From: Candidatus Woesearchaeota archaeon
GTDB taxonomy: Archaea; Nanobdellota; Nanobdellia; Woesearchaeales; SM23-78
NCBI GenBank assembly: GCA_016932315.1
Contig: JAFGDD010000004.1
Coordinates: forward strand, 35,457-99,456
Direction: 5' to 3'
Length of the DNA stretch: 64,000 nucleotides
The notes under the pieces are model-generated. The model did no database searches and was not told where the DNA came from. It saw nothing but the letters and a program-made list of their open reading frames with translations. Below, piece by piece: positions 32,112 through 53,506 of this stretch (the first letter of the stretch is position 1; every line of letters begins with the position of its first letter). Position numbers and translations under genes: made by a program.

Positions 32112-33941
32112 TCAACAACTTCCTGATGCAGTTGATGAAGTCGCCCCTAAGTTGGTGCTGCACTCATTTGGAGCAGCATCATACTTCTCGCACAAGGCAG
32201 TCTTGTAATTCTCAGGTGTTCTGCCTCCGTTGTAGGCTTCACCGTCAATAAATACTGTTGGGCTGCCGCTCACACCAAGCTTATCACCAAGGGCTTTTTC
32301 TGCAGTTAGCAGAGCAACTGCTTCGTCTGCTTGGCATTTCTTTATTTTAGCTACGTCAAGCTTGAGTTTTGTAGCTACTGCTTCCCAGCAGGTGTCTGCG
32401 TTCTGATAAGTGCATTCTGAATTCATTGCAAGGGCAAACTCAAACCACTTGCCAATGCCCATGTGCTTGTTCACACATAACTCCCTAACGTCCTGGTTAA
32501 GCTCTTGGATACCATGCATCGAACATAACTTGCCACTATCAATGCAATAGTTAGCCCCGCCGCCACCATAATTTTCATAAATAACATATCGAGGGTTAAA
32601 GATAGCTTTATCCTTAAGCAGCTGATAGGCTGGCTCTATGCCCTCCTCTGCCTGGTTGCCATAAGGGCAGTAGCTCATGACAAAGAAGTCTATTTGCGGC
32701 TTGTTGTCGCCGAGTACAACGCCGATTGAGTCATAATAGGCTTTTCTCTTTTCCTCGCTAACAAAGTAAGAGGCGCCCGCGGCATCATCAAGAATCTTGT
32801 ACTTGTCATCTTTAAGCTCAAATACAGATTGCAAGTCCGTCCTTGCCTGCCAGGTGTTAGTCTGAGTTATTTCAGTTTCAAAGAGGAATGCAGGCACTAC
32901 TTCAATATTATACTTCTGCACAAGAGCTTTTCCTTCTGAACTGTCAACATCCACTATGCTAGGTTTTGCACCCAGGAATAGCTGCTGGAGTGCTGTAACA
33001 ATATTGGTGGTGTCGCAGGCACTTCCACACTTAGCAGATGTTAAAATTATATAATTAACCGGAACTGGTTCTCTGTATTCGCAAGCAGCGTTCTTCATCC
33101 CGGGATTAATGCAATAACCCTCCTTCCCTTCTTGCTCTGTGCAATCAGCATTGGTTGTGCACTTAGGAATTTCTGCACAGGCAGGTGAAGTTGATAACTG
33201 GCAGATTGCTCTTTGGAATGATGTTGAATCCCTCTGGCCTTGATAAGCAGAGTCTGCTATGTACATTGTAGGGCTGCCCCTTGCATTCCTTGCAGTGGCT
33301 CTTTGCATTGACTCTCTCAGCAATGTCTTGCCTTCCTCTCCTTCAAGACAAGTCTTAAGCTTATTAACATCCATGCCATTCTGCTGAGCACAACTAACCC
33401 AGTTAGTATCCACATTAGTTGCATCCTTGTTCTGGCACAGTATGAAGTCTATGTACTTATAATTTGTTGGGTAATACTTCATTGCGCATAACTGCACAAT
33501 GTTGCCTGTTACTTCCTTGGCTCCGTGCAGGCTCTGGAAAGTTCCTGGGCTGGTTTCTGACACAATAAAATCAAGGTGGAAGTCAACTGCATCACCCATG
33601 GATTTTAATACAGGAGCAATGGCGTTCTCTACCTGGGTTCCATAAGGGCACTGGCTCATCACATAGAATTCTACCTTAACCTTTTCCCCAGAAACAGGAG
33701 GCGTAGTTGGCATCTGCTTCCTCATCAGCATAAAAATTACTGCCAGCAGGATGATGATTAAAATGAATGCAGATATTAAGAGATAAGTGCTGCCTGGCAC
33801 TTTCTTATCAACAGCTTTTTCCTCTTTTTTATTAATAGCAGACTCTGCTGTCTTTGACTCGCGTTCATGTTGTTTGTGCTCAGAATGAGCCTCGTGTTGT
33901 TCATATGTATGCTTTCCTTTTGTTTTCAAGAGAAAACCACC
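32112..33941 (-). CDS. Secreted / membrane-anchored protein with two thioredoxin-like modules
   Basis: Two repeats are centred on F(Y/F)VMS(Q/Y)CPYG(T/N)Q(V/A)E. Single N-terminal TM (LLISAFILIIILLAVIFML). Probable TTG start with GGGAGGTGG RBS (nt about 33941). The ORF track extends to 34088 and overlaps the upstream permease. Many Cys. Confidence 0.4.
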   Translation of the reverse strand, partial: GGFLLKTKGKHTYEQHEAHSEHKQHERESKTAESAINKKEEKAVDKKVPGSTYLLISAFILIIILLAVIFMLMRKQMPTTPPVSGEKVKVEFYVMSQCPYGTQVENAIAPVLKSMGDAVDFHLDFIVSETSPGTFQSLHGAKEVTGNIVQLCAMKYYPTNYKYIDFILCQNKDATNVDTNWVSCAQQNGMDVNKLKTCLEGEEGKTLLRESMQRATARNARGSPTMYIADSAYQGQRDSTSFQRAICQLSTSPACAEIPKCTTNADCTEQEGKEGYCINPGMKNAACEYREPVPVNYIILTSAKCGSACDTTNIVTALQQLFLGAKPSIVDVDSSEGKALVQKYNIEVVPAFLFETEITQTNTWQARTDLQSVFELKDDKYKILDDAAGASYFVSEEKRKAYYDSIGVVLGDNKPQIDFFVMSYCPYGNQAEEGIEPAYQLLKDKAIFNPRYVIYENYGGGGANYCIDSGKLCSMHGIQELNQDVRELCVNKHMGIGKWFEFALAMNSECTYQNADTCWEAVATKLKLDVAKIKKCQADEAVALLTAEKALGDKLGVSGSPTVFIDGEAYNGGRTPENYKTALCEKYDAAPNECSTNLGATSSTASGSC

Positions 33942-34047
33942 TCCCAATTCATTTCCTAATAAAAATATATTTTTAGTCAATGTTAAAGGCTTGTATTTAA
34001 AAAGTTTATTAAAGAAACAAAAATAACGTGTTTTTATTATTTTTTTA

Positions 34048-36075
34048 TTATTCTTCTTGAGAGGGTTGTTTTTTCTCTTCCATTTCAATGTCTTCTGAGA
34101 GAACTTTCACAGTGTCTTTCCTATTGGCAGACTTTCTCAGCTTGGAAGCTAGTTTCTTTTCCTTTAGCTCCTTCTCAACCCAGTCTGCTATTTTATTCTC
34201 GTATTGCGTGACGTTATCTTCAAACTCTGAGCGCGTCATATCAGAAACTAATTTCAGCAGCTCTTGCTTGTTAGAAGCCTTTTTCTCTCCCACAACAAAA
34301 CCAGCTACGCCAGCTTTTGCATTGCCAGGTTCTCTTTTGGCTGAAGCTGAAATTTCAGAGTCCTGGTTTATTGCTTCATCCTGTTGTTTTGAGGCTTTCA
34401 CCTTTTTCTTGTTCCTCAAGCTGACACCAAAGATTATTAGTAAGAACATTATTAGAGCTGCTCCTCCTAGGGTTATTAATGTAAGAAGGGCTTCTGTCAT
34501 GATGTTGACGTTGAAGAGCAATGATTTTCTTAAAAGCTCAGATGCAAGAACATAAGGGTTATACTTTATTATGTTGGTAAGGGCGGGAGCAAGGCTTTCC
34601 AAAGGCACTACCAGGTTTGAGAGGAAGAGGAATATTGAACCTAGAACAATTGATGCCATAATTGCACCTTCCTGGGTTGAAAATAGGTAGCCTACTGCCA
34701 TTCCTAGAACAATAAAGAAAGCAGACGTCAGGATTACAAGTATGGCTGTGCAAAGAGCATTCTTGAATAAGGGTATTTGCATGAAATAATTAGCCAAGCC
34801 AAGTATGATTAGAGTTTGCATAACAATTACTATAAAGCTGGTAATAAAGGTAGTGAATACAAAGAATTCCTGCCTTATAGGGGTAATGTGATTCCTGAAA
34901 AATGATTTTGAGCTCTTCTCAAACATTACAAGTGTGCTTGAGAGCAACAATGCTACAAACATTATTACCAATACTAAGAGGAAGGGGAAGGTAAATGTTA
35001 GCTTGGATGTTTCAGACACAACAGGCTCAATCTTTGTATTAACAGGACTGACAATTGTTTCTACATTTGTAATATCAATGCTTTCCAGCTCTTGTCTTGT
35101 TTTTTCAAGATTGGTTTTGAGTCCCACAATATTGGTTTGTATGCTTGCAACTCTCGTCTTGGCAGAATCTATTAATTTCTGGTTTTCTGTGTTAAGCTGC
35201 CTGTTAGCTGCCAGGTCTGACTCCAGTTGCGTCAGCGAGTTGGACAAAACATTCAAATCATCTATCAACTCCTTTATTTGGTTGGGTGTAAGATTGTATA
35301 AGTTAAGAAGTTCATCTCTTAAAGCAGCGAATTCCTCTCTAATATTAGATACATTCTCATAAACCCCCAAGTCATCTATCCATTCATCTGTGCTGTTAAT
35401 CATTAAGCCGCCCTTTTCAATTATCATCATTATAGTATCATTCAGGGTAATGACAGAAGAGTTCAAGGCATTCAGGTCAACTTCTTGCAGTTCAAGCTTC
35501 ATTGATTCAGTATTAGCTTTTGCCTTTTGCAGGTCGAGCACTAAAAGGTTAAACTGAGGGTTCAGGTTGGCAACCAACACGCTTTCTTTGCTTAAATCCT
35601 TAACAGTTGAGTTAATCCTTGAAAGCAATGCTTGAGTTAAGGAGTAGCTAACCTCTTCAGACTTCAGGTCCAAAATCCCAGATACAGACTCTATTACTTT
35701 GTAAACAAGATTCATGCGGGAATAATCCACGAGGAATCTTAATTCACTGCTCTTTTCATTGCTAACCTGAAAGTTTTCAGGGAATATAATGCAAGTATGG
35801 ATTATTCCTTGTTCTACCTTTTTCACACAATCCTGCTCATTATTGAATTCCTGTACATAATAATGGCTTTGCTTCAGCGAATCCACAAAATTGTTTGTTA
35901 GATTAGTATGCTGCGACGCGTAATAGCCTAAACTTAGCTCATAACTTGCCTTGCCGCTAAAAGCCAACCCTACTAAAAGGATAACCAGCAGAGGACCTAT
36001 TAGCACAGTAAACGCAGATGCCTTGGCTCTTATTAAGAGCTTGAAATTCTTCTTTATTATCGAAAAAAGCTTCAT
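34048..36075 (-). CDS. ABC-2 type transporter permease with large extracytoplasmic coiled-coil domain (YhgE/Pip-like)
   Basis: One N-terminal TM, then an extracellular helical domain of about 330 aa, five C-terminal TMs and a charged C-terminal tail. Overlaps the upstream ATPase gene by 4 nt. Confidence 0.6.
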   Translation of the reverse strand: MKLFSIIKKNFKLLIRAKASAFTVLIGPLLVILLVGLAFSGKASYELSLGYYASQHTNLTNNFVDSLKQSHYYVQEFNNEQDCVKKVEQGIIHTCIIFPENFQVSNEKSSELRFLVDYSRMNLVYKVIESVSGILDLKSEEVSYSLTQALLSRINSTVKDLSKESVLVANLNPQFNLLVLDLQKAKANTESMKLELQEVDLNALNSSVITLNDTIMMIIEKGGLMINSTDEWIDDLGVYENVSNIREEFAALRDELLNLYNLTPNQIKELIDDLNVLSNSLTQLESDLAANRQLNTENQKLIDSAKTRVASIQTNIVGLKTNLEKTRQELESIDITNVETIVSPVNTKIEPVVSETSKLTFTFPFLLVLVIMFVALLLSSTLVMFEKSSKSFFRNHITPIRQEFFVFTTFITSFIVIVMQTLIILGLANYFMQIPLFKNALCTAILVILTSAFFIVLGMAVGYLFSTQEGAIMASIVLGSIFLFLSNLVVPLESLAPALTNIIKYNPYVLASELLRKSLLFNVNIMTEALLTLITLGGAALIMFLLIIFGVSLRNKKKVKASKQQDEAINQDSEISASAKREPGNAKAGVAGFVVGEKKASNKQELLKLVSDMTRSEFEDNVTQYENKIADWVEKELKEKKLASKLRKSANRKDTVKVLSEDIEMEEKKQPSQEE

Positions 36076-37640: not shown

Positions 37641-38138
37641 CTATTTTTTACAGATGTCAAGGGTGATTTCCATTTCGCCAGGATAAAGTGGCAGGAAAAC
37701 CCATCCTTGCTCCCTGTTTTTTATTTTAGAGGTGCAGTTCAAACTAATGAAAGTAAGGTTGGTTTTCTCAAGAGTGAGGTTGAAGCTTATACTCCAGTTA
37801 ATCAGGGTCTTGTCCAGTATCTTGATGAGGGTAAGATTAACCATTTGGCAGCTGGTGTATTCATTGCAAACATATGAGTGGTATGTTTTGGCGCAATCAG
37901 TTATGAGTTCTGACAAGGCAATGTTGTGGCATTCCTCGACGCTTGTTTTGGTCAGGCTTATCAGGAAGTTGGTTGCCATTTCCTTGTCAATGTAAATCTT
38001 CTGAATATTTTTGGCAGGGTTGCTAAGCTTGTACACCAGAAAAAAGAGCATTCCTGTAATTACTATTATTACAATAATAACCAGCCCTATAATTTCCATC
38101 TGGGCTTTTGAATTTTGATGCTGTATAATTTTGCTCAT
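37641..38138 (-). CDS. Type IV pilin-like protein (archaeal class III signal peptide)
   Basis: MSKIIQHQNSKA|QMEIIGLVIIVIIVITG has a charged n-region, [KR][AS]Q, then a hydrophobic helix, as in archaeal pilins with Q at +1. ORF track start is at 38177. Confidence 0.5.
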   Translation of the reverse strand: MSKIIQHQNSKAQMEIIGLVIIVIIVITGMLFFLVYKLSNPAKNIQKIYIDKEMATNFLISLTKTSVEECHNIALSELITDCAKTYHSYVCNEYTSCQMVNLTLIKILDKTLINWSISFNLTLEKTNLTFISLNCTSKIKNREQGWVFLPLYPGEMEITLDICKK

Positions 38139-38178
38139 AAATTCTTGCTCACATAATTCTCCCTGAGTCTCGCACAAC

Positions 38179-38712
38179 TTATTCGTATACTTGCAGTTCC
38201 ATAACTCCTAAGGCATATGCCTTGGTTAATGGATTGTAAAGGCTTACAGGCACGCGCACCATATCTGCAGTCTTGGTTTTGCCTGCGTTCTCCCATAAAA
38301 TCCAATAATCCGTGCCTAAAGTTCTTGAATCAGACGGGTAAATTTCTACTACACTTATCTTTGAGTTTCTTAGCAAGTCAAAATAATAGTTAAAGGAGTA
38401 AGAATTATCCTGTTTAGTCTGATTAATGAAGCTGCCAAGCACCATTAGCTTTGTAATGTCTAAACACATAAATTCTGAGGTTCCTATTTCTGAGCATTCG
38501 AGCTCTGGCCAGAAGCTAAGCCTGTGCGCAATTTCCACAACTCTTGCATTCCTAAGCTGCCTTTGCTTCTCCTTTATGCTTACCTCCTGGAATTTTGAAT
38601 AGAAGACAACACTGAGGACAATAATAATTATTATTATAAAAACTACAAATATCGTTTCAGTCATCTGAAGCTCTGCTTTCTTTGCAACTGTTGTTTTATT
38701 GTTTTTTCTCAT
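38179..38712 (-). CDS. Type IV pilin-like protein
   Basis: N-terminal VAKKAELQMTETIFVVFIIIIIIVLSV (charged, then long hydrophobic stretch). Stop abuts the next gene. Confidence 0.4.
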   Translation of the reverse strand: MRKNNKTTVAKKAELQMTETIFVVFIIIIIIVLSVVFYSKFQEVSIKEKQRQLRNARVVEIAHRLSFWPELECSEIGTSEFMCLDITKLMVLGSFINQTKQDNSYSFNYYFDLLRNSKISVVEIYPSDSRTLGTDYWILWENAGKTKTADMVRVPVSLYNPLTKAYALGVMELQVYE

Positions 38713-38784
38713 TTTCAGCTCATTAAAAAATTTATATACTTTTTTAATTCTTTAATCTTCTAATTCTTTAATCTTTTAATACTT

Positions 38785-39870
38785 TTAATATATTCTTGGG
38801 CAATTAGTTTTCTGTAACAAGTAATTGTTAAGAGTTCTCAAATCATTAACTGCCAAGAATAATGAATATATGTCGGGTAGCAGAGGTTCTTTTTTTCCAG
38901 AATATTCCTGAATATTTGCCAGGTAAAGGGCTGCGCTGTTCTCTGCCCCAATATAAGCATCTGAGCAGCTCTCAACTGTGTTTTCAGAGTAATAAATCAT
39001 TCTTTGCTGATAAAGCTGCGCTAGGAGTTCTAGGCGCAAAAGGCTTTTCTTAAAGTTGTGTTCATAAATGGTCTTGTCATGACTTATCACGCCGCCAAGT
39101 ATAGAATCCAAGCCTAAATACAGAGCTGCATCTGCGTTGTTGCCTACAAATCCTGCTTCAGGGGAGTAAGTAGAAAATATCATCTCGCCATAATCCAGCA
39201 ATACTCCTTGTGCTGGCTTTATGACGACTGCAAATAACCTTTTATCACCATTAACAAAATTTAGCTGACCGACTCCGAGAGGAGCATATTCATCATCAAA
39301 AATAAAAACTGTATGTTCATAATTATTATCTTCATAAACGGCAACTTCTGATGTGTCAATGAATTTCTTGGTTGCGTCCTCTGGCATGGCATCAAAAACA
39401 GCATTCAACAAAGGAGAATCTAATGAACCAACAAAAACATATTCTATATCTTTGTCAGTAATATAAACGAAAGGCATGATTTTGAAGGGGGCATTAAAGA
39501 TTCTGGTAAGAATAACCAGCTCGTCACTCTTAATCTCTGAAGGTGAAAAAATAACATTATAATCATACCGGCTTGACTTAAGAGCTCCTTCAACATAATA
39601 CTCTGACGTTACATCGGAGGTGAAGAATATTTTTTTGCCTGCTTTGTCAAAAAGAATGCTCCTTTGGGTGTTCTCTGAAGCAGAACTGATTTTTAGAAGG
39701 TTATCAAGCTCAAGCGTTGCTTCCTGCGCTGAGCTTTTATCAGCACTAGAGCTCTGGTTGGCTATCACGCTGAAGAAGAAACCTAAAAAGACTGCTCCTG
39801 CTATGAGCACAAATATCCAGTTGAACTGAAGAGTAAAACCCTTCCTATTAAAAAGCCTCTTTTTAAGCAT
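38785..39870 (-). CDS. Type IV pilin-like protein with bacterial-type G|FTLxQ motif
   Basis: MLKKRLFNRKG|FTLQFNWIFVLIAGAVFLGFFF resembles the prepilin G|FTLIE consensus, with Gln at +5. Confidence 0.45.
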   Translation of the reverse strand: MLKKRLFNRKGFTLQFNWIFVLIAGAVFLGFFFSVIANQSSSADKSSAQEATLELDNLLKISSASENTQRSILFDKAGKKIFFTSDVTSEYYVEGALKSSRYDYNVIFSPSEIKSDELVILTRIFNAPFKIMPFVYITDKDIEYVFVGSLDSPLLNAVFDAMPEDATKKFIDTSEVAVYEDNNYEHTVFIFDDEYAPLGVGQLNFVNGDKRLFAVVIKPAQGVLLDYGEMIFSTYSPEAGFVGNNADAALYLGLDSILGGVISHDKTIYEHNFKKSLLRLELLAQLYQQRMIYYSENTVESCSDAYIGAENSAALYLANIQEYSGKKEPLLPDIYSLFLAVNDLRTLNNYLLQKTNCPRIY

Positions 39871-39948
39871 TTCATCACCGCGTTCATCGCACTCCTCGCA
39901 CTTAGTGTGTGCCTTTGAAACTCTTTTTAACCTTTTTTTAACCTCTTT

Positions 39949-40464
39949 TTAATTCCAGCCAGATTCTATCTGAACTTTGCTGCCCAGCCCTGTGAAGACA
40001 AGCTTGAAGTTGCCATTTCTTGCTTTGAAGCATTCTAAATGCGAGGTTGTGGGAATGCTTATCTTTTGTGAAAATTTATTTACATTTTTCAATGGCTCTG
40101 TAAACTCTGCCTTGACAAAAATATTGGCTGTACATGCACTAAGATAGTTTCTAATTTCCACTTCAGCAGCAGGGAGACTGTCAATTGAAAACAATGAACT
40201 TTCTCTTGGGCAAAAATCAGAGTCTGCAAAACAAACCTCCTTAACATTGCAAGCCGCTTTAAGAGTTTCTTCGTGCACAGATCCTGCATCTGTGTATTCG
40301 TCAATAAAATTAAGGATAGAACGCTCAAAAACAATTCTTTGGTGTTCGCACTGCGCATTCATGATTGAGGATATGCCTTTGTAACCTACCACTATGAGCA
40401 CTCCAACAACCAGTAACACCATGATGTAAATGAAGACTTGGCTTATCTGAGCTCTTTTTTCCAT
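39949..40464 (-). CDS. Type IV pilin-like protein (class III signal peptide, Q at +1)
   Basis: MEKRA|QISQVFIYIMVLLVVGVLIVVG. Confidence 0.5.
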   Translation of the reverse strand: MEKRAQISQVFIYIMVLLVVGVLIVVGYKGISSIMNAQCEHQRIVFERSILNFIDEYTDAGSVHEETLKAACNVKEVCFADSDFCPRESSLFSIDSLPAAEVEIRNYLSACTANIFVKAEFTEPLKNVNKFSQKISIPTTSHLECFKARNGNFKLVFTGLGSKVQIESGWN

Positions 40465-42515: not shown

Positions 42516-42683
42516 TCTAATAAGCCCAGCATGATTAAATTTAATATTATTAAATTTAATATTATTTTTTTTTATATTGCTAACCTTGTTGCTTTTCCCC
42601 TTCATAATATAAACCTCTTTTTTAATTCTGCTCTTAAAATTACCATCTCATCAATGTCAAGTTACATTAATTTTATGTGGTTG

Positions 42684-45872: not shown

Positions 45873-47900
45873 TTATTTTGTAATTATATATGCAGGTCGT
45901 GATACTTGACTTAATGAAGTATCATTATAACAGCTCTCGACAAAAGTATTGGTAACCGTGTCATTTTGTCTGACCCAAAAACAATCAGGCATTTTTCTTA
46001 TGCAAGTATTCTTGTCAGTAATGGAAAAGCAATCTCTGTGTGCTTGTGGGTCGCCAGAGTGCGTAATCGCATAAACACAACTCTGGCAGCTTCTTTTCTG
46101 TTCATTACCATTATCAGGATAGCAAGCCCAACCGACATAACTGTCAGGATCACAGAAACTACGGCATTGATTGGCTGCTGTCTTACACCAAGCACCTCTA
46201 CAGTCATGAGCAGGGTTCTCATTTGAACCTAATACTCCTGAAAAATCGCATTTAGAAATATCACAAGGATTATCATTGGCATCAGGTTTGCATTTGCCAT
46301 CGCCACATAAATTACATTGCTCTTTCTCTTTTGCATAATTGCAGCATGCTTCTAAGATGCATTCACCAATACAATTATCCTGGGGGGGATTATTTGTAGA
46401 AGAATCAGTTATGTTAATCCAGAACTGCTGATAATCAAATAGACCGTTATCGTCAAGAGCCAGTATGCCTACTGCATGAGTTCCTGAATCATATTGGTTG
46501 ATGGACGCCCAGAGTTCTGAGTAAGTCAAGCTGGCTTGTACTCGCATATCTGCTTCGCACCATCCTTGCCCTCCAGTAAGAATGGTAGTGCTAGAGCTTA
46601 TCTCTTCTGAAGGAATGATAAAAGTTCCCGAACCTTGGCATTCTGAACGACCAAAATTATAAGATAAAAAATAATAGGTGATTTTAGAGTCATCGGGGTC
46701 GTGAGCATTTAGTGGGATTTCTATTGTTTGAGTGTTTGCAACATCTATCTCCCTCCCTTCCATCCAATCCAGGGCTGGTCGCCTGTCTTTTATTGATATT
46801 CTAAACAACAAAGGCCTGCCATTAACAATTGATTTCCTATCGATTACTTCTAGAATATCATCATATTTGTAAGGCAAACTACAAGAGGTACACGGGTCTT
46901 TGACTCTTTTGACTTCTAACCCTGATTTCCAATATGGCGAACTTACAAATTCCTCTTCAATATCAAATTCTATATTTTTTGAATCCAAGGATAACAAATT
47001 ATAGATGAAGTTGTAAACCCTGCCAAGTCTAATGTTGGTTGTTGTCTGATAATCTGTTACCTTGGTTACTGGCTCCTTGTCAGGATAGGTTATCTTAATT
47101 GGATACTTTATGGCAAGCAGCATGTCTGAATCGTGTATGCTAAGTTCTGCTATTGGCGGCACCTCCGTGCTAAGCGTTGCTCCTGTTTTGTCTGAAAATT
47201 GAGTTAAGTCAACGCAAAGTGGGAGCTTCTTGATAATATAATCTTCTAGTTGCTTTTGTATTGTAAAGCCCACGTTTGCTCCTTTGGCAAATGGCTCGCA
47301 GCCAGAAGCTCTCATAGGGTGGCAGAGCTTGCTCATTACGTTTTCTCCGTAAAACCCATCATATGCAGCGTAGAATGAATTAAAGAGACAATTTTCATTA
47401 TAAATAACGTCAAGCTCAGAAAGAGAGGTGTTTGTGTAAGGATAATCTGGGCTTGCATAATTAATTTCAGAACAAAGGGCATTATCTTTTAATCCGTAAC
47501 TAACAAAATATGGTTTGGTAAGATGGGTGTAGTTAAGATAATCCGATCCAAGTGTTAAGTCCTTGAAAGGAATGTTTCCCCCTTCAAAATCATATATTGT
47601 GCCTCCATTGGCACTAATTTTTTCTAAGCCATCCATGGTTACTCTAAGAGCGCAATCAACAATATGGTTCTTTACTCTGCCTGTTTCGAGTTCGTTTAAT
47701 ATGTTCTGAGCAGTAACTGGCTTTGGCTTTATGCTTTGCCTCATCGCTAACATGATAATTACGAGTATTAATAGAACCAAACCTATTATGACGAAAAGCG
47801 TTATCTGGGATTTCTTTTGATGCTTTAGATAGTTCATCTTATAGCTAAGCTCATATGTATTGTATTTGACTAGTATGTGATTCGCACTAATCTTAGTCAT
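45873..47900 (-). CDS. Large surface protein (675 aa) with pilin-like N-terminus and C-terminal Cys-rich module shared with the 1530-aa protein
   Basis: N-terminal ...KHQKKS|QITLFVIIGLVLLILVIIM resembles the [KR][AS]Q class III signal of the adjacent pilins. The last 167 aa are a Cys-rich domain homologous to an internal segment of the 1530-aa protein. Confidence 0.55.
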   Translation of the reverse strand: MTKISANHILVKYNTYELSYKMNYLKHQKKSQITLFVIIGLVLLILVIIMLAMRQSIKPKPVTAQNILNELETGRVKNHIVDCALRVTMDGLEKISANGGTIYDFEGGNIPFKDLTLGSDYLNYTHLTKPYFVSYGLKDNALCSEINYASPDYPYTNTSLSELDVIYNENCLFNSFYAAYDGFYGENVMSKLCHPMRASGCEPFAKGANVGFTIQKQLEDYIIKKLPLCVDLTQFSDKTGATLSTEVPPIAELSIHDSDMLLAIKYPIKITYPDKEPVTKVTDYQTTTNIRLGRVYNFIYNLLSLDSKNIEFDIEEEFVSSPYWKSGLEVKRVKDPCTSCSLPYKYDDILEVIDRKSIVNGRPLLFRISIKDRRPALDWMEGREIDVANTQTIEIPLNAHDPDDSKITYYFLSYNFGRSECQGSGTFIIPSEEISSSTTILTGGQGWCEADMRVQASLTYSELWASINQYDSGTHAVGILALDDNGLFDYQQFWINITDSSTNNPPQDNCIGECILEACCNYAKEKEQCNLCGDGKCKPDANDNPCDISKCDFSGVLGSNENPAHDCRGAWCKTAANQCRSFCDPDSYVGWACYPDNGNEQKRSCQSCVYAITHSGDPQAHRDCFSITDKNTCIRKMPDCFWVRQNDTVTNTFVESCYNDTSLSQVSRPAYIITK

Positions 47901-47912
47901 ATCGTGTTCTTA

Positions 47913-48776
47913 TTATCTGAAGACAAGACATGCATAACTCACGCTGTTCGCGTAATCGTTAGTTAAGTCACCAGAGGTATAATACTGCTCCAAAGCAGCA
48001 TTTTTGAAGGTAATAGTTTTCAAAAGCAAAGTTATTGGAAGCTGACCACAAATGGTGGCTCCTGTTTTGTAAACATAATCAGCAAATTCATTTGCAGAGC
48101 CTTTTTTTATCAAATCAATGGCATCACTGTCTAGCTTGTAAATCCTCTGCTTGATATCAGTGGAAAAAGGCACGTAGCCATAATTCATGCCATAATGAGT
48201 GAAATCACTGCTCACAATAAAAGTAACCTTTCTTTTAAGCTCTGCAATCGCATCTTTTAAGTCAGATGCAACTTTGTCTAGGTCAATATCTTCGGAAACA
48301 AGAATGGGCAGAATCTTTATGTGGTCTGCTCTTTTTCCGAGTGAAAACTGAAGAAAAGGCAACTGAACCTCAATGCAATGCTCATTGGCGTGTAACTCAT
48401 CATTAATCTTTAAGCTGCCCTTTTTTGCCAAAAGCTTTGCCAACTCCTGGTCTACTCTGACAAAGCCAAAAGGAGTTTCAAAGGATTCTATTGCAATGCC
48501 AGAAGCACCTCCTCTGTGACTTGGGCCCAACATTATAAACACCTCTGGCAAAGGAGCCTCTGCTAATGCAGCAAACCCCCAGGCAGCAGCCATGCCGCTA
48601 TAAATATAACCTGCATGAGGGTTTATTATGGCTTTGATTGGCAGAGCATCTGGCTTGGTCTTGGTAACAGGCAAATCTCCTGGACCTCTAGAATCATTAA
48701 AGCAAGCCTCTATTTGCTTGGTTAAAGCATTAACTGTTTTAGGATAGAATGACCCTGCATATGCTGGCTTTCTCAT
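47913..48776 (-). CDS. Memo-family protein (MEMO1 / AmmeMemoRadiSam system protein B-like)
   Basis: MRKPAYAGSFYP, INPHAGYIYSG and the conserved His/Asp/Cys positions are typical of the Memo/extradiol-dioxygenase-like fold. Size is 287 aa. Confidence 0.8.
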   Translation of the reverse strand: MRKPAYAGSFYPKTVNALTKQIEACFNDSRGPGDLPVTKTKPDALPIKAIINPHAGYIYSGMAAAWGFAALAEAPLPEVFIMLGPSHRGGASGIAIESFETPFGFVRVDQELAKLLAKKGSLKINDELHANEHCIEVQLPFLQFSLGKRADHIKILPILVSEDIDLDKVASDLKDAIAELKRKVTFIVSSDFTHYGMNYGYVPFSTDIKQRIYKLDSDAIDLIKKGSANEFADYVYKTGATICGQLPITLLLKTITFKNAALEQYYTSGDLTNDYANSVSYACLVFR

Positions 48777-48913: not shown

Positions 48914-51900
48914 CTATTCTTCTGGGTTTCTGAGAAGTGTTAGCGTATTCCAAGCGCCTGCTGGCGGATTCTTAAGTGAGACGCTAACAACATTGGCTTG
49001 TGATGATTCGCTAATGTTCAAAAAGCTCAGCTCAGAAACTGAAAATCCTGTGTAGTTGAAAGAGTAGAACCATGCTGGCTGGGCAGAAGCTTTGCAAGCA
49101 TTCTCTCCTACTCCAAATATCTTCTTGTTATTCAGATTGGTTGCATACAGCTTATTAAAGAGCTGAAGCCCCTCTAGATTGCTTTGAAGAGAAGCGGGTT
49201 TTGGGCAAAGCCAGCCCATCCAGCTCAGCCAAGAAGGCAAGCTAGAGCAAACACCATTCCATAATGAAGGAGTTAATTCATTAATTTTTTGATCACTAAA
49301 AACAATCATTTTTGATTTGCTGTCATAATAGAGCTTCAGATAAGCATTATCTACGCACAAAGTAAAGCCGGGCTCGTTCAAACATTCAGGCTTAAAGTTA
49401 AATTTAGCTCCAGGATATGATTGGAGGAAATTTTGCTCAACAGTTGTTATGAAATCAGTGTGATTAGTAGCATTGTAAAACTGCTGATTAATGGTTGTGC
49501 CTATTATTCTTTGACCATTGAGGTTTAAGACACAATAATTATTGGTTTTGCCGGCTGCAAAAGGCAAGTCAATCAGCACATCCTCCTTTGTTCCGCACGT
49601 TAAAGTGAATTTGTCTGTGTTTTTTGTCAGAGAAACGAGTTCCATTGCCAAAAGCTTAGTTCTGCTCGTCCAATTTCCGCTCTGGCAAAGACTGTCTTTA
49701 ATGTATTGGGTGTTATTGATGCATTGCGGGTTGCCATCGACGTTGCCGTTATCAGCGGGATTGCCTGCGATATTATACAAGCATTGCGTGGCATTGGAAC
49801 AGAAGCCAGCATAACAGCCATTAGGCGTCTTCTGACCAGCACCCATTATATTAACCCACATTCCTTGCAAACACTTATAGATTGCGGTCTCATTAACCTT
49901 ATACTGAGCATTATAGGCTAATTGCTCAGCAATACAAGCACCGATCCCGCCGCCAGCAGTCGGATCCCAGCACTGATTAGGCAAGCAACAACTAGCATTT
50001 CTCAAGTTATTATTGCTGGTTACATTCTTGAAATAATCCATCAAAGGCTTCGGGACCTCTGATTTGTGGGATAAGTTCTCATAAGTTTGAGTCCAAGCGC
50101 CACTAACATAAGAGCAATAATAATCCCCCCTAGGGGTGTTTAATATAGTGCAATAATCAGAACGCTCAATCAAAGCTCCTTTTGCAGTTAAACCTCTGCC
50201 TGTTCCGGGGTCTGGCCAATCAGTAACAGCCTTTAGGCATTGCCTGCTCAGACGCTGGCTATAATCGCAGAAATCATTGGCGTGAGTGATAGGAGAGACG
50301 CATTGCCTGCACTCGCTAGGCCTATCTTTATCAGCCTTATAACAGGTAACTCCTACGTATTGGTCTTCTTTACAAACATCGCTACAGAATTCCCTTGCTG
50401 CAGCGCACCATGCATTTTCACAATCCTTATAAGGATTAGCATCGGACGACAATGGCAAGAAGAAATTGCATTTTGAAGCGTCACAACCAGGATTGTCTGG
50501 TTCACAATTATTAATGCATTGAGGCTGGCAACCCCACTTATCTGGTTCACAAGCATAGCTAGAGCAAGCCTCAATAATGCATTCCTTCACACAATTGCTC
50601 ATCTCAGTAGGACCAACAATAGGCTCGTCACGAGGATCTTCCTCGAATGCTGCTCCAGTTATCTCAATTAAGTTATTATTAATATATTCGGGTAATGATG
50701 AGGATTGAGATGAAGAAAAAGTAACAGGATCTAAACCGCAACCATAGAACTTGCCGTTCTGAACATAAACTTCATTATAAGTATAGGCTGTGCCACTGCT
50801 TCCTTTGTAGAGCAAGAAGTTATTGTTAGGCTGGAACTGACCCTTAAAACAGGCACCTGATGTGCTGCCATAATCATTATATGACTCATTACCCCAAGGT
50901 GTAAAATCCTCTTTTTCAGAGCAGCAATAAGTTCCAGTGGCCTTTAAACCGGCTTTGGTACAAGCATTCTGCAAAGTAGGGCCGTCAAGATTAGAACTAA
51001 AAGTCCCATCATCCAAACAATAAAGAGTTTTATTATTCATTACAATATACTGGCCGGGATTAAGTGTTTTAGTCACACTAGAATCCCTGCTTCCAGGAAT
51101 ATCGGTGCATCCCTTAATTCCACAGCAAATGGCAATCTTGGCTCGCGAGGAGTCTAATCCTGGTTTTTTTGTTTGGCTGTAATCAGTATAACATATATAA
51201 TTATGATCACTAACATTGCCCATGATTGAACCATTAGCAATCACGTAGTCTAAAGCGTATAACCCTGCTTGCCAACCATCGTCCTGCTGACCTGGTACGC
51301 AAAGCTGGGCATGAGTTAATCCATCCATCGCGCCATATACATAAATGCCATGAGCATTAGGTGAAGGAGAAATGAGTTTTTTGCCAGGGCAAGGGATAAG
51401 AGCGTCATTCACCACGCTCACATCACGCCCACTTTTGTACTCCTCCCATTCCAGAATTGGCGCCGGGCAAAAAGCACTCGAATCTGTTCCTTTTGTAAAT
51501 TCCATGTTCTTAAAAGACAAGCCTCTGGCTCCTGTACTTATGAGACTTGCAAAACCAAAAGGACTATCGCCAGTACAAACAAGATAACCGCCAAGAGAAG
51601 CAGTATTGAAACGATTACTATCAGTAGTAGCGTGCAAACCACAACCAGGCTCTAAAGCCGCACCCACAACAGAGCCATGAACTCTCACAGAAGCGCCCTG
51701 ATAATAACCAGCAGGGCAAGAGTACTGCCAGCTGCCTGTTGACTTCCAAGTAGTGCTGCCCTCCGAAGCACCACCATAAGCAAGTACTTTTGTAAGAATC
51801 TCAGGATTCCTGTTAGGATCAACTTCAAATAATTTTAAACATCCATCAGTGTCATAATCAACAATGTGGGTAATGTAGTCATCATACTTGTCCTCATCAA

Positions 51901-53506
51901 TGCACTTAACAAATTCGCCGCCCATATTAACTATTGGGAAAGAGTTAAAGCAGCCTGCAGTTTTGAAAACCTCGCCTGATTTAGTCTCATCAGAAGCCAA
52001 GTGCCAGCTTGTTCCATCACAAATCTTAGTGGTATCACAAACAGCTTTGCCATCAGAACGGCATTTATTATTGCCGCAACAACCAACCCCTTCTGTAAAG
52101 GTTCCTCCTGCAGCAGCGCAGGCAATAGGGTTAGTGTCAACAGCATCATAAGAGAAAGCAGGAGTATAACCAGCAGCCTCAATATTGGCCTTGCAACCAG
52201 TAGCAGGATCACAAGTTACATCATAAGGCTGATAATAAGGATTAGTGTTAGAATGCAAGTCCCTATAAGCTTTTGCAGAATCAGCAGCGCCATCATTATT
52301 AATCCCAACACAAACCTTATTCACGCAAAAAGGAGTGTCTGCCTTACAGAATCCTCCTTCTGTTCCAGTAAAGTACTTGTGAGTGCCACCATCAGTAAAT
52401 CCACAGCCACCGCAATTAAAAGGGTCAATGGTCTTATCAACACAAGTATTTCCAAAGGTTACCGTCCCCACGCCCTCAATGGCAACCGCAGAAGTGGTTG
52501 AAACTGTGACTTCTTGATTAGGCAATACATAAGGATAAACAGAGCCATCAGGCATTAAAGGAACAGGGCACCAAGCACAATTGGAAGCAGCTCCTTCTAT
52601 AGTGCAAAGTTCAGGAGTATCACGCAAATTACAAGGAGGCGAGCAAGTATCTGTGTAATTTACACAAAGAGTCACGCCTTTGAAACCATTAATTCCGTCT
52701 TTCAATATTATTGATGAGCTACCAGTATCATAAGTAAATGTTTGTTTAACAAAGCCATCAGGACACTTTAAATCACACATAGGGATGAGTCCCACGAAAG
52801 GGCATGTATCCGATAATAAAGTTACATTATTCACACCTTTATTTCCTGTTTTCGTGCTGCAAAAACGATAACAAATATTGGAATAGCCTATTGATCCTTC
52901 CTCATCCCAACCTGAAACGCCAGAAGGATTACAAGAAGGAGCGTTACAGGTGCCTCCATTAGGATACGGGTTCCAAGTTAATTTTAGGTCCTTCATTTCG
53001 TTCTGATAACCCTTCTTATAACAAATTCGCCATTGATTAACATCATCTGAACTTCCCGCGTCTATCCACCCCTCAGGACAAGAAGTTGTAAACATATGAA
53101 TATCATTAATACAACCAAAAGAAGATGCTGGCGGGGTTTCTGAAGATGGGCAACAGGCATTACAATCTCCATCTGCGACACTAGAGCAAGCTTTTTCTGT
53201 GAATGTTTCGTCTGATTTAGTACAACAAACCATATCTATATTACATACAGGATTACAATTACCCCCTGGATTCCATCCATTTTTAACATCGCAAGCAATT
53301 TGGCATTGTGCTTGCTCATCAGAATAGTAATCACAACACTTTGCACAATCGCCGGAATTATCCAAACAACCGCCACAAACAAAGGAGTTTGTTCCAGAAC
53401 ACGTTCCTAACACTAAATCAATAGATGTTAATAGCAATGCTGATGCAAAAACAAAAAAAAGTAAAGAAAAAAATTTCTTGTTACTATTGAAAATCATGAA
53501 CTCCAC
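48914..53506 (-). CDS. Giant secreted cysteine-rich surface protein (1530 aa)
   Basis: Sec signal (FFSLLFFVFASALLLTSIDLVLG). Well over 100 Cys in irregular spacing and numerous glycosylation sequons. Carries an internal module of about 125 aa homologous to the C-terminus of the 675-aa protein. No TM anchor. Confidence 0.55.
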   Translation of the reverse strand: MEFMIFNSNKKFFSLLFFVFASALLLTSIDLVLGTCSGTNSFVCGGCLDNSGDCAKCCDYYSDEQAQCQIACDVKNGWNPGGNCNPVCNIDMVCCTKSDETFTEKACSSVADGDCNACCPSSETPPASSFGCINDIHMFTTSCPEGWIDAGSSDDVNQWRICYKKGYQNEMKDLKLTWNPYPNGGTCNAPSCNPSGVSGWDEEGSIGYSNICYRFCSTKTGNKGVNNVTLLSDTCPFVGLIPMCDLKCPDGFVKQTFTYDTGSSSIILKDGINGFKGVTLCVNYTDTCSPPCNLRDTPELCTIEGAASNCAWCPVPLMPDGSVYPYVLPNQEVTVSTTSAVAIEGVGTVTFGNTCVDKTIDPFNCGGCGFTDGGTHKYFTGTEGGFCKADTPFCVNKVCVGINNDGAADSAKAYRDLHSNTNPYYQPYDVTCDPATGCKANIEAAGYTPAFSYDAVDTNPIACAAAGGTFTEGVGCCGNNKCRSDGKAVCDTTKICDGTSWHLASDETKSGEVFKTAGCFNSFPIVNMGGEFVKCIDEDKYDDYITHIVDYDTDGCLKLFEVDPNRNPEILTKVLAYGGASEGSTTWKSTGSWQYSCPAGYYQGASVRVHGSVVGAALEPGCGLHATTDSNRFNTASLGGYLVCTGDSPFGFASLISTGARGLSFKNMEFTKGTDSSAFCPAPILEWEEYKSGRDVSVVNDALIPCPGKKLISPSPNAHGIYVYGAMDGLTHAQLCVPGQQDDGWQAGLYALDYVIANGSIMGNVSDHNYICYTDYSQTKKPGLDSSRAKIAICCGIKGCTDIPGSRDSSVTKTLNPGQYIVMNNKTLYCLDDGTFSSNLDGPTLQNACTKAGLKATGTYCCSEKEDFTPWGNESYNDYGSTSGACFKGQFQPNNNFLLYKGSSGTAYTYNEVYVQNGKFYGCGLDPVTFSSSQSSSLPEYINNNLIEITGAAFEEDPRDEPIVGPTEMSNCVKECIIEACSSYACEPDKWGCQPQCINNCEPDNPGCDASKCNFFLPLSSDANPYKDCENAWCAAAREFCSDVCKEDQYVGVTCYKADKDRPSECRQCVSPITHANDFCDYSQRLSRQCLKAVTDWPDPGTGRGLTAKGALIERSDYCTILNTPRGDYYCSYVSGAWTQTYENLSHKSEVPKPLMDYFKNVTSNNNLRNASCCLPNQCWDPTAGGGIGACIAEQLAYNAQYKVNETAIYKCLQGMWVNIMGAGQKTPNGCYAGFCSNATQCLYNIAGNPADNGNVDGNPQCINNTQYIKDSLCQSGNWTSRTKLLAMELVSLTKNTDKFTLTCGTKEDVLIDLPFAAGKTNNYCVLNLNGQRIIGTTINQQFYNATNHTDFITTVEQNFLQSYPGAKFNFKPECLNEPGFTLCVDNAYLKLYYDSKSKMIVFSDQKINELTPSLWNGVCSSLPSWLSWMGWLCPKPASLQSNLEGLQLFNKLYATNLNNKKIFGVGENACKASAQPAWFYSFNYTGFSVSELSFLNISESSQANVVSVSLKNPPAGAWNTLTLLRNPEE

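What the first reader, a model, noticed from the sequence alone, without database searches (positions are those of the whole stretch)
46002..46376. A Cys-rich module of about 125 aa shared between the 675-aa pilin-headed protein and the 1530-aa giant (second copy at about 50221-50596)
The two segments align by eye at roughly 45% identity with conserved Cys spacing: NCIGECILEACCNYAKEKEQCNLCGDGKCKPD...PCDISKCDF...ENPAHDCRGAWCKTAANQCRSFCDPDSYVGWACY...SCQSCVYAITHSGD versus NCVKECIIEACSSYACEPDKWGCQPQCINNCEPD...GCDASKCNF...ANPYKDCENAWCAAAREFCSDVCKEDQYVGVTCY...ECRQCVSPITHAND. The module is C-terminal in one protein and internal in the other. The two genes flank the Memo gene. A shared disulfide-rich domain suggests a common binding function or domain shuffling between surface proteins.
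Basis: seen in the sequence. Interest (0 to 1): 0.55.

Follow-up and report, generated by a model that had tools for sequence, protein, structure and literature searches.

The report
Shared disulfide-rich module in Woesearchaeota surface proteins
Two neighbouring surface-protein genes of a Woesearchaeota (DPANN) archaeon share a real, previously undescribed cysteine-rich domain of about 108 residues, which most likely forms the outward-facing binding head of a pilus-type adhesin and was copied into a giant secreted protein.

Summary
The 675-aa protein (residues 509-617) and the 1530-aa protein (971-1078) share one significant segment: BLASTP E=2e-19, 39% identity over 136 aa and 43% over the core. 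The score is z=23 above composition shuffles, and z=13.6 with the Cys positions held fixed.

The segment is a discrete domain with no Pfam, PDB-sequence or Foldseek match, although the AlphaFold model is confident (pLDDT 89). An exhaustive HMMER scan of 1.84 billion proteins found it only in these two Woesearchaeota families.

Every one of 19 copies has an even Cys count (12, 14 or 16), and cysteines are gained and lost in pairs. This points to a scaffold of three disulfide-linked helices carrying hypervariable loops.

The core of the domain is universal in the roughly 47 orthologues of the 675-aa protein. That protein has a class III (pilin-type) signal peptide, an N-terminal domain and two cadherin-like domains, followed by this module and a tail. 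In the giants the module is patchy (3 of 10 lineages) and always sits at the same insertion hotspot. The giant copies nest within one pilin-protein subtype, so the copy is old and went from the pilin protein to the giant. It is not a recent duplication (58.6% nucleotide identity).

A second, unrelated module is shared in other genomes. A binding function is inferred, not shown. Interest is moderate.

The parts
46050..46376 (-). Module copy A: residues 509-617 of the 675-aa pilin-type protein (NCIGEC...ITHSGD), 16 Cys. The model shows three helices at about 508-520, 564-576 and 600-613, joined by variable loops at 523-566 and 584-604.
   Evidence: BLASTP E=2e-19. Shuffle z=23 and z=13.6. AlphaFold models with pLDDT 88-89. 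Family alignments.
50273..50596 (-). Module copy B: residues 971-1078 of the 1530-aa giant (NCVKEC...ITHAND), 16 Cys.
   Evidence: The module occupies the same position in giant orthologues P0052 and P0054.
50273..50644 (-). Segment of the giant (about residues 955-1078, linker EEDPRDEPIVGPTEMS plus the module) that is absent from the closest orthologue (L002/P0056, 1360 aa, 72% identical over the 932 ungapped alignment columns). It marks the insertion/deletion hotspot between FYGCG and C-x8-10-CL..V.DWPDPG.
   Evidence: MAFFT alignment of giants. Sequences of module-less giants. Hotspot lengths of 63-69 aa against 200-353 aa.
45876..46049 (-). C-terminal tail of the 675-aa protein (residues 618-675: H.DC..I..K..CI..MPDCFWV...F.ESCYND...PAYIIT). 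It has 4 conserved Cys and a beta-hairpin. It is conserved in all orthologues and is not shared with the giant.
   Evidence: Alignments A3 and A5. Model. hhalign against the giants' post-hotspot segment gives probability 0.07.
45873..47900 (-). Gene for the 675-aa pilin-type surface protein (NCBI JW756_01480, 'hypothetical'). Architecture: class III-like signal peptide, conserved N-terminal domain, two cadherin/Ig-like beta-sandwich domains (DPDD motif), module, tail.
47727..47822 (-). N-terminal KKSQITLFVIIGLVLLILVII... segment (residues about 27-58): a basic residue, a small residue, then Q-I-T and a hydrophobic helix of about 25 residues. This is a class III (prepilin-type) signal peptide motif.
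   Evidence: Conserved as [KR]-[SAGT]-Q-I-[TS] in 40+ orthologues. Hydrophobic segment 28-59. Predicted helix 32-55. Cleavage was not tested.
48914..53506 (-). Gene for the 1530-aa giant secreted Cys-rich protein (102 Cys), with an N-terminal hydrophobic signal segment at residues 11-37. NCBI (JW756_01490) starts it at M92 and so omits the signal segment.
   Evidence: The orthologue alignment supports the long N-terminus.
47913..48776 (-). Memo-family gene lying between the two module-bearing genes. It stands directly upstream of the pilin-type protein gene in every related locus examined.
   Evidence: Pfam Memo E=4e-62. Synteny in L002, L003, L004, L006, L011 and L012.
37641..40464 (-). Four small genes (171, 361, 177 and 178 aa) with class III-like N-termini (KRAQIS..., RKGFTLQ..., KKAELQ..., SKAQME... 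followed by hydrophobic stretches). They are presumed pilins of the same conserved cluster.
   Evidence: Translations. Genes of the same sizes in the same order in L002, L003, L004, L011 and L012. No Pfam match.
32112..34088 (-). Membrane-anchored protein with two DsbA/GILT/thioredoxin-like domains. It is a plausible extracytoplasmic disulfide oxidoreductase for the Cys-rich surface proteins.
   Evidence: Pfam GILT 1.5e-17, DSBA 3e-16, Thioredoxin_4 4e-13.

Best explanation
The shared segment is an autonomous extracellular domain of about 108 residues that belongs to no described family and is so far seen only in Woesearchaeota-type DPANN archaea. It is built from three helices carrying invariant cysteines (C-x3-C-x4-C on helix 1; C-x3-W-C on helix 2, followed by C-x3-C just after it; C-x2-C on helix 3). 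These are cross-linked by 6-8 disulfides, and two long loops vary strongly in sequence and length.

Its ancestral home is the C-terminal end of a conserved pilin-type protein. That protein has a class III signal peptide, an N-terminal domain and two cadherin-like domains, followed by this module and a short tail. The gene sits in a conserved cluster with four small pilin-like genes.

One subtype of the module ('type I', with the YVGWxCY motif and an extra Cys29-Cys85 pair) was copied long ago into a fixed insertion hotspot of a giant secreted Cys-rich protein, which in most of the genomes examined is encoded two genes upstream. It has since been lost from some giants, including the closest relative of this one.

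Inferred mechanism: the disulfide-stapled helices are a rigid scaffold that presents the variable loops at the distal end of the protein. There they act as the recognition and adhesion surface for a partner cell or substrate. The giant protein uses the same head for the same class of ligand.

Shown: homology, domain boundaries, distribution, Cys pairing behaviour, confident helical model, hotspot, age.
Inferred: direction of transfer, loss in the sister lineage, extracellular disulfide state, binding function.
For: - Homology beyond composition.
- Restricted distribution: an exhaustive profile search of 1.84e9 representative proteins returned 7 hits, all orthologues of the 675-aa protein or giants. 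The word-indexed search of 5.8e9 proteins found 1 hit. Scans of GTDB genomes and JGI metagenomes found only the same lineages.
- No known family or fold: Pfam, PDB sequences, Foldseek against PDB with best E=0.94 and TM<0.2, and BFVD. This is despite pLDDT 88.9 and pTM 0.73, with the same helices in the whole-protein model.
- Disulfides: all 19 modules have 12, 14 or 16 Cys. Columns 12+24, 29+85 and 51'+56' appear and disappear together. The whole proteins have 30 and 102 Cys. A membrane-anchored DsbA/GILT-like protein lies 12 kb away.
- Scaffold plus variable loops: the two loops show 14-17% mean pairwise identity and a length range of 0-44 residues, against 40-51% for helices 2 and 3 and 45-49% for the other domains.
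- Distal position: the module follows the pilin-type N-terminus and two cadherin/Ig-like domains (Foldseek E about 1e-5, probability up to 1.0).
- Direction and age: the core is present in about 47 orthologues but in 3 of 10 giant lineages, always at the same site. The giant copies fall inside the type I clade (70% bootstrap). The window's pilin-protein module pairs with P0003 (99%). Nucleotide identity is 58.6%.
- Loss in the sister lineage: P0056 keeps the pre-module linker INISMLNISGKMF but lacks the module.
- Repeated exchange between the two families: a second shared module, E=9e-30.
- Context from the literature: surface proteins and type IV pilus components are the fast-evolving, host-interaction candidates in Nanoarchaeota (PMC6142677). 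Large class III signal-peptide proteins in archaeal pilus loci have been proposed as tip adhesins (PMC4858521).
Against: - No experiment or ligand is known, and binding is inferred only from position and variability.
- Monophyly of the giant copies is weakly supported (22% bootstrap). One gain followed by losses cannot be separated from two gains. The 70% support for nesting in type I is moderate and comes from a short alignment (about 100 columns, NJ).
- No pilus assembly ATPase, platform protein or prepilin peptidase lies in the window, and no Pfam pilin model matches. The 'pilin' label rests on the N-terminal motif and the gene cluster.
- The organism looks like an anaerobic fermenter (PFOR, acetate kinase, NiFe hydrogenase), where extracellular disulfides are less expected.
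Confidence: 0.55

Rival explanations
1. Docking module. The two copies bind each other (homotypic or heterotypic, in the manner of cohesin-dockerin), so that the giant protein is attached to the tip of the pilus-like fibre.
For: The two genes are neighbours in a conserved locus. The same two families share a second module as well. The giant has a signal segment but no membrane anchor, so it needs some means of retention.
Against: Presence in the two proteins is not coupled. The closest relative has the module in the pilin-type protein but not in its giant. L004 and L011 have no giant at the locus. The L012 giant lacks both modules, although its pilin-type protein carries module 2. P0054 carries the module at a different genomic location. 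Seven of ten giant lineages lack it.
Confidence: 0.12
2. Purely structural element. The module is a protease- and stress-resistant, disulfide-stapled cap or spacer with no ligand of its own. Its loops vary because they are unconstrained.
For: The helices and cysteines are conserved while the loops drift and can be deleted entirely, down to a minimal 8-Cys form in several orthologues. Giants function without it in most lineages.
Against: A neutral spacer would not be expected to be retained at the terminus of about 47 orthologues. Nor would it be expected to be transplanted and kept for a long time (43% identity, all subtype-specific cysteines preserved) at an exposed hotspot of a second protein.
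Confidence: 0.2
3. Metal-binding or redox domain. The cysteines (with the conserved His of TH(S/A)xD and the C-x2-C at a helix start) coordinate Zn, Fe-S or another metal, or act as a thiol-disulfide redox centre, in an anoxic habitat.
For: The genome context is anaerobic. There is a C-x2-C at the N-terminus of helix 3 and a nearly invariant His. There are weak, non-significant similarities to Vanabin-2 (3 of 35 members, E>=1.6), metallothionein (1 of 35) and the Tim10 zinc-finger family (1 of 35).
Against: Cys counts are always even and cysteines are gained or lost strictly in pairs, which fits disulfides and not metal sites. The His is replaced in more distant orthologues (N, S, Y). None of the Pfam similarities approaches significance. 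A DsbA-like oxidase is encoded nearby.
Confidence: 0.07
4. Chance or compositional resemblance between two Cys-rich low-complexity regions, or a recent intragenomic duplication or gene-conversion tract.
For: Both proteins are Cys-rich throughout (4.4% and 6.7% Cys).
Against: E=2e-19 with composition-based statistics. z=13.6 even with cysteines fixed. Orthologous copies exist in other genomes at the same sites. Against recent conversion: 58.6% nucleotide identity, longest shared word 9 nt, and the module tree.
Confidence: 0.01

Closest known systems
Large class III signal-peptide (pilin-like) proteins and PilY1-type tip adhesins of type IV pilus loci (archaeal examples discussed in Makarova et al. 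2016, PMC4858521)
   Same: The N-terminus has a basic residue, a small residue and a hydrophobic helix. The gene sits among several small pilin-like genes. Large extracellular domains lie C-terminal to the pilin helix. Binding is proposed to occur at the distal end.
   Different: No sequence or profile match to any pilin or PilY1/DUF2341 family. No assembly genes lie in the window. The distal domain is a new Cys-rich helical module, not a beta-propeller or vWA domain.
Disulfide-stapled helical mini-domains: twin-CX3C/CX9C helical hairpins (small Tim/CHCH proteins, plant alpha-hairpinins), Vanabin-2 (four helices, nine disulfides) and nemertine neurotoxin B-IV. The structural descriptions come from my own knowledge of these families.
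   Same: All are all-alpha and small, with cysteines spaced one helical turn apart on neighbouring helices and every cysteine oxidised. Helix 1 carries a C-x3-C.
   Different: There are only non-significant sequence hits (Vanabin-2 E>=1.6; Tim10 E=1; B-IV E=1.8) and no Foldseek match. This module has three helices plus 20-45-residue Cys-containing loops. It is extracellular, and it is embedded in multi-domain archaeal proteins.
Modular cadherin/Ig-like bacterial adhesins with a distal ligand-binding region (for example SraP, PDB 4m00-4m03; RTX adhesins, 6xi1)
   Same: The middle of the 675-aa protein matches tandem cadherin/Ig-like beta-sandwiches (Foldseek E about 1e-5, probability up to 1.0). 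The architecture is 'stalk of beta-sandwich domains plus a terminal head'.
   Different: The matches cover only the stalk domains. The head (this module) has no counterpart in those structures. Anchoring is by a pilin-type N-terminus rather than LPXTG or a type I secretion signal.
Domain swapping between receptor-binding proteins (phage tail fibres; mosaic surface proteins of episymbionts)
   Same: The same module occurs in two otherwise unrelated proteins, at defined insertion points. Its presence is patchy among close relatives, and a second module behaves the same way.
   Different: No sign of recent or frequent exchange (43% amino-acid and 58.6% nucleotide identity). No flanking repeats or mobile-element genes were looked for or seen. 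The timescale is that of genus- or family-level divergence.

Membership tests
Archaeal type IV pilin-like proteins (class III signal peptide substrates of A24 prepilin peptidases) | Short positively charged N-region, then a small residue (G/A/S) at -1, then a hydrophobic stretch of about 20 residues that stays on the mature protein | tested here: met
   HQKKS|QITLFVIIGLVLLILVII in the window protein. [KR]-[SAGT]-Q-I-[TS] plus a hydrophobic stretch is conserved across 40+ orthologues. Hydrophobic segment at 28-59. Helix 32-55 in the model.
Archaeal type IV pilin-like proteins (class III signal peptide substrates of A24 prepilin peptidases) | Match to a curated pilin/archaellin N-terminal profile | tested here: not met
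   Pfam scan at E<=1 gives only DUF6524 (E=9e-4, below its cut-off) and FtsH_ext over the N-terminus.
Archaeal type IV pilin-like proteins (class III signal peptide substrates of A24 prepilin peptidases) | Cleavage by a prepilin peptidase and incorporation into a filament | not testable with these tools
   No peptidase, ATPase or platform gene was found in the window. A Peptidase_A24 gene lies near the giant orthologue in L005.
Twin-CX3C / CHCH / Tim10-like helical hairpins | Two CX3C (or CX9C) motifs on two antiparallel helices, and a profile match | tested here: not met
   Helix 1 has C-x3-C. Helix 2 carries C-x4-C (C-x3-WC), followed just after the helix by C-x3-C. Pfam zf-Tim10_DDP matched 1 of 35 members at E=1.
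Vanabin-2 (Pfam PF11437) | Significant profile match; four-helix, nine-disulfide bundle | tested here: not met
   3 of 35 members, best E=1.6. No Foldseek hit to any PDB chain with E<0.9.
Known extracellular Cys-rich repeats (EGF, furin-like, TNFR, PSI/plexin, DUF4215 of the neighbouring 670-aa protein) | Profile match at or near the Pfam gathering threshold | tested here: not met
   Furin-like matched 1 of 35 members at E=0.0075. No PSI, EGF, TNFR or DUF4215 hit at E<=10 for any of the 35 module-plus-tail sequences. The neighbouring 670-aa and 1001-aa proteins do not match the module HMM.
Cadherin/Ig-like beta-sandwich domains (for the stalk of the 675-aa protein, not the module) | Fold-level match to tandem cadherin/Ig domains | tested here: met
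   Foldseek against PDB found 60 hits with E<=1e-3. The top hits are LI-cadherin, protocadherins and SraP (probability up to 1.0). A DPDD motif is conserved. Calcium binding was not tested.
Disulfide-bonded extracellular domain (general class) | All cysteines paired: even Cys number, and co-variation of the presence of partner cysteines | tested here: met
   12, 14 or 16 Cys in all 19 modules. Three pairs of columns appear and disappear together. Direct chemical evidence is not available.

The most novel reading that the evidence does not exclude
The two families form a cassette system. Defined hotspots in a pilus-tip protein and in a giant secreted protein accept interchangeable recognition modules (module 1 types I and II, module 2, and further Cys-rich inserts such as the one in P0014/P0019). 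This would give Woesearchaeota a combinatorial way of changing the partner-cell specificity of their attachment apparatus, an archaeal counterpart of receptor-binding-domain swapping in phage tail fibres. The module itself would be a new disulfide-stapled helical fold.
Probability: 0.15. Interest if true: 0.65.

Novelty: new variant of a known kind. Interest (0 to 1): 0.4.

Why it matters
How DPANN archaea recognise and hold on to their partner cells is largely unknown, and most of their large surface proteins are unannotated.

This finding defines a concrete unit that can be cloned and tested. It is a domain of about 108 residues with a confident model and no described relative, sitting at the distal end of a pilin-type protein conserved across Woesearchaeota and reused in a giant secreted protein.

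Three features make it a reasonable first target for binding studies and structure determination: the hypervariable loops on a rigid scaffold, the two subtypes, and the patchy reuse. It could also serve as a marker for comparing attachment specificity between lineages.

It does not change any established concept, because shuffling of Cys-rich extracellular modules among surface proteins is a familiar theme.

Tried and rejected
1. Extended homology. I suspected that the giants' native segment after the hotspot (C-x8-10-CL..V.DWPDPG...DYC...YCSYNN.W) was homologous to the pilin-type protein's tail (C-x8-CI..MPDCFWV...SCYND). hhalign of the two family alignments gave probability 0.07, so this was rejected. 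The shared unit ends at TH(S/A)xD.
2. Recent duplication or gene conversion within this genome. Rejected by the module tree and the DNA comparison.
3. Obligatory co-occurrence of the module in both proteins of a genome. Rejected by the loci L002, L004, L011 and L012.
4. Third copies, or module 2, in the window. None found.
5. Known families. Pfam on whole proteins and on 35 module sequences, PDB sequence searches with a single sequence and with a profile, and Foldseek against PDB and BFVD gave nothing significant.
6. PSI/plexin-like reading of the tail, recalled from the C...C...C.W pattern. No Pfam support, so it is not claimed.
The 6-sequence version used only the YVG[WV]xCY pattern, so it could find type I copies only.
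10. Literature searches found no description of this module or gene cluster.
Full report
**1. What is in the window.**

The region is a run of minus-strand genes:
- a THUMP/ThiI-like gene (53590-54420);
- a 1530-aa ORF (48914-53506);
- a Memo-family gene (47913-48776; Pfam E=4e-62);
- a 675-aa ORF (45873-47900);
- a 1001-aa and a 670-aa Cys-rich ORF;
- four small ORFs (37641-40464);
- an ABC transporter.

The 675-aa protein is identical to NCBI 'hypothetical protein JW756_01480 [Candidatus Woesearchaeota archaeon]'. The giant corresponds to JW756_01490. A TATA-binding protein, MCM and the PolD large subunit lie nearby, so the window is archaeal.

**2.

BLASTP of the two proteins gives a single significant HSP: 675-aa residues 495-617 against giant residues 947-1078, 39% identity, E=2e-19. 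The core (509-617 against 971-1078) is 43-44% identical.

The alignment score of 235 compares with 44 +/- 8 for composition-preserving shuffles (z=23). It compares with 59 +/- 13 when all cysteines of one copy are held in place and only the other residues are shuffled (z=13.6). The similarity is therefore neither compositional nor a by-product of Cys spacing.

A six-frame HMM scan and an all-vs-all BLASTP found no further copy in the window. The copies are old: DNA identity is 58.6% and the longest shared word is 9 nt.

**3. Boundaries.**

In the closest giant orthologue (L002/P0056, 1360 aa, 72% identical over 932 ungapped alignment columns) the module is cleanly missing. The window has ...INNNLIEITGAAF-[EEDPRDEPIVGPTEMS + module]-DFCDYSQRLSRQCLKAVTDWPDP. 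L002 has ...INISMLNISGKMF-YENCTNLSAKLSDQCLASVRDWPDP. This fixes the unit at about residues 955-1078 of the giant.

What follows the module is not shared. I tested the idea that the pilin-type protein's tail is homologous to the giants' post-hotspot segment, and hhalign gave probability 0.07.

**4. Distribution.**

A profile of three modules was searched exhaustively against 1.84 billion representative proteins. It returned seven proteins: five relatives of the 675-aa protein and two giants, P0052 (1902 aa) and P0054 (1569 aa). The word-indexed search of 5.8 billion proteins gave one hit. Pattern scans of GTDB genomes and JGI metagenomes recovered only the same lineages.

The 675-aa protein has about 47 orthologues in Woesearchaeota/Nanoarchaeota metagenome bins, at 34-72% identity and mostly full length. 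All of them keep the second half of the module (C..WC..AAN.C...C ... C..CV.PI.HS.D) and the tail. Sixteen of them (including the window protein and two fragments) keep the full-length module.

The full-length modules fall into two subtypes. Type I has YVGWxCY and NPYKDC and carries 14-16 Cys. Type II has C.NA..W..GEPY..HY.C and carries 12 Cys. The split has 84% bootstrap support.

**5. The giant family and the hotspot.**

The giants are alignable over most of their length. Ten lineages were examined. Three carry the module, always between FYGCG and C-x8-10-CL..V.DWP(D/N)PG: the window giant, P0052 (also seen as the L003 giant, and at L006, L007 and L009), and P0054 (L005; the same 1569-aa giant in the same context at L010). 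Seven lack it: P0056, P0057, P0058, P0059, P0060, P0061 and the L012 giant.

On a tree from 932 ungapped columns, the window giant pairs with module-less P0056 (100%). P0052 and P0054 group with module-less P0057 (95%). Presence is therefore patchy. P0056 retains the linker that precedes the module in its sister, so loss is the simpler reading there.

In the module tree the three giant copies fall inside the type I clade of the pilin-type protein (70%). P0052 and P0054 pair at 86%, but monophyly of all three giant copies has only 22% support. The window's own pilin-protein module pairs with its orthologue P0003 (99%).

The core is universal in the pilin-type family and sporadic in the giants. 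Together with the nesting, this favours transfer from the pilin-type protein to the giant. Support is moderate, and the number of gains is unresolved.

**6. A second shared module.**

In other genomes a different segment of about 140 aa (GITGFGV..PWNDGPTCE..GWGW...) is shared between pilin-type orthologues P0010/P0012 and giant P0052, at 50% identity and E=9e-30. It is absent from the window. In P0052 it sits immediately upstream of module 1, at the same hotspot. In P0010/P0012 it sits in the linker between the two beta-sandwich domains. P0014 and P0019 carry yet another Cys-rich insert there. The two families have thus exchanged modules more than once.

**7. Structure.**

AlphaFold2 was run on residues 497-675 with a 35-sequence alignment. 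It gave pLDDT 88.9 and pTM 0.73, with helices at model positions 12-25, 68-80 and 104-117, followed by a beta-hairpin tail. The 675-residue model (pLDDT 88.0, pTM 0.80) shows the same elements.

Each helix carries two invariant cysteines: C-x3-C, C-x4-C and C-x2-C. Foldseek found nothing in the PDB (best E=0.94, TM<0.2) or in BFVD. Other fold libraries were unavailable.

The whole-protein model matched only tandem cadherin/Ig-like domains, at E about 1e-5, through its middle part. A conserved DPDD motif lies there.

**8. Disulfides rather than metal sites.**

All 19 full-length modules have an even number of cysteines (12, 14 or 16). Eleven Cys columns are invariant. The others come and go in pairs: columns 12+24 occur only in P0002/P0003, columns 29+85 occur in exactly the same ten type I sequences, and two further columns occur only in P0052/P0054. 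The window giant has its own extra pair.

The whole proteins have 30 and 102 Cys. A membrane-anchored protein with two DsbA/GILT-type thioredoxin domains is encoded at 32112-34088. The weak Pfam similarities (Vanabin-2, Tim10, metallothionein, furin-like) are all non-significant.

**9. Variability.**

Among 42 full-length orthologues the two module loops are the least conserved parts of the protein. Mean pairwise identity is 16.6% and 14.2%, and loop 1 ranges from 0 to 44 residues. Helices 2 and 3 are at 51% and 40%, and the N-terminal and beta-sandwich domains are at 45-49%.

**10. Context.**

The N-terminus (HQKKSQITLFVIIGLVLLILVII) and its orthologues ([KR]-[SAGT]-Q-I-[TS] plus a hydrophobic helix) fit the class III signal-peptide pattern (pattern as reviewed in PMC4858521). 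The four small downstream genes have similar N-termini.

The whole gene order is conserved in six related loci: TBP, wHTH, ThiI-like, variable giant, Memo, pilin-type protein, a protein of about 1000 aa, a protein of about 650-1300 aa, four small genes, then YjbQ or ABC. The giant is absent from two of these loci (L004, L011). In one lineage (P0054; L005 and L010) it is encoded elsewhere, near a Peptidase_A24 gene.

No assembly ATPase, platform protein or peptidase was found among the window ORFs scanned.

**11. Interpretation.**

These data support a discrete, disulfide-stapled, three-helix domain with hypervariable loops. It is ancestral to the distal end of a conserved pilin-type surface protein and is reused at an exposed hotspot of a giant secreted protein.

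I consider a recognition or adhesion role the most likely function, at roughly even odds, for four reasons:
- its distal position after a cadherin-like stalk;
- its scaffold-plus-variable-loop design;
- its mosaic distribution;
- by analogy, surface proteins and pilus components are the fastest-changing genes in Nanoarchaeota (PMC6142677), and type IV pili mediate episymbiont attachment in Saccharibacteria (PMC9894109).

A docking role between the two proteins is disfavoured by the uncoupled presence and absence of the module (section 5). A metal-binding role is disfavoured by the Cys parity. A purely structural role cannot be excluded.

**12. Novelty and score.**

The domain itself is undescribed: the carriers are annotated 'hypothetical', and there is no Pfam, PDB or Foldseek relative. 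It is confined to one DPANN lineage. The phenomenon, a Cys-rich extracellular module shared between surface proteins, is familiar. I rate it a new variant of a known kind, with interest 0.4.

Noticed in passing
L003:3122-8818, L006:10001-15709 (giant P0052 residues about 1157-1297); P0012 residues 459-613; P0010: A second, unrelated module of about 140 aa (GITGFGV..PWNDGPTCE..GWGW..) is shared between some orthologues of the 675-aa protein and some giants (50% identity, E=9e-30). It is absent from the window.
   Followed up: partly
window 48914-53506 (start region 53233-53506): The NCBI model of the giant (1439 aa) starts at M92 and omits a conserved N-terminal hydrophobic signal segment (residues 11-37). 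Orthologues support the longer ORF (GTG at 53506 or ATG at 53497).
   Followed up: partly
window 32112-34088 (-): A 658-aa membrane-anchored protein with two DsbA/GILT/thioredoxin-like domains. It is a candidate extracytoplasmic disulfide oxidoreductase in an apparently anaerobic DPANN archaeon, close to a cluster of very Cys-rich surface proteins.
   Followed up: partly
window 37641-40464 (-): Four small genes (171, 361, 177 and 178 aa) with class III signal-peptide-like N-termini and no Pfam match. They are conserved in size and order downstream of the large surface-protein genes in all related loci, and probably form a pilin set.
   Followed up: partly
window 47913-48776 (-); L002, L003, L004, L006, L011, L012: A Memo-family gene is always immediately upstream of the pilin-type protein gene, whether or not a giant gene is present. 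The reason for this tight linkage is unexplained.
   Followed up: no
L003:3122-8818, L006:10001-15709, L012:498-4850: Some giant orthologues carry a Hint/PT-HINT (intein-like autoprocessing) domain in their N-terminal part. The window's giant and L002's do not.
   Followed up: no
window 40593-42605 (-) and 42684-45689 (-): Two further large Cys-rich surface proteins. The 670-aa protein has a weak DUF4215 hit (E=6e-5, below Pfam's cut-off), visibly repetitive Cys-rich sequence, a C-terminal hydrophobic segment and a long Lys/Gln-rich tail. The 1001-aa protein has a weak CarboxypepD_reg-like domain. Neither contains the module.
   Followed up: partly
L005:8509-9399: In the lineage where the module-bearing giant (P0054) lies outside the usual locus, a Peptidase_A24 (prepilin peptidase) gene sits about 2.3 kb downstream.
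   Followed up: no
window 6389-10693 (+): A BatA/VWA/DUF58-type gene pair (621 and 812 aa, with DUF7406/7407/7408 domains): another probable surface or aerotolerance-like system.
   Followed up: no
P0014 residues about 420-690; P0019: Two orthologues of the 675-aa protein carry a Cys-rich insert of about 250 aa in the linker between the beta-sandwich domains. This is a third insertable element at the same site as module 2.
   Followed up: no
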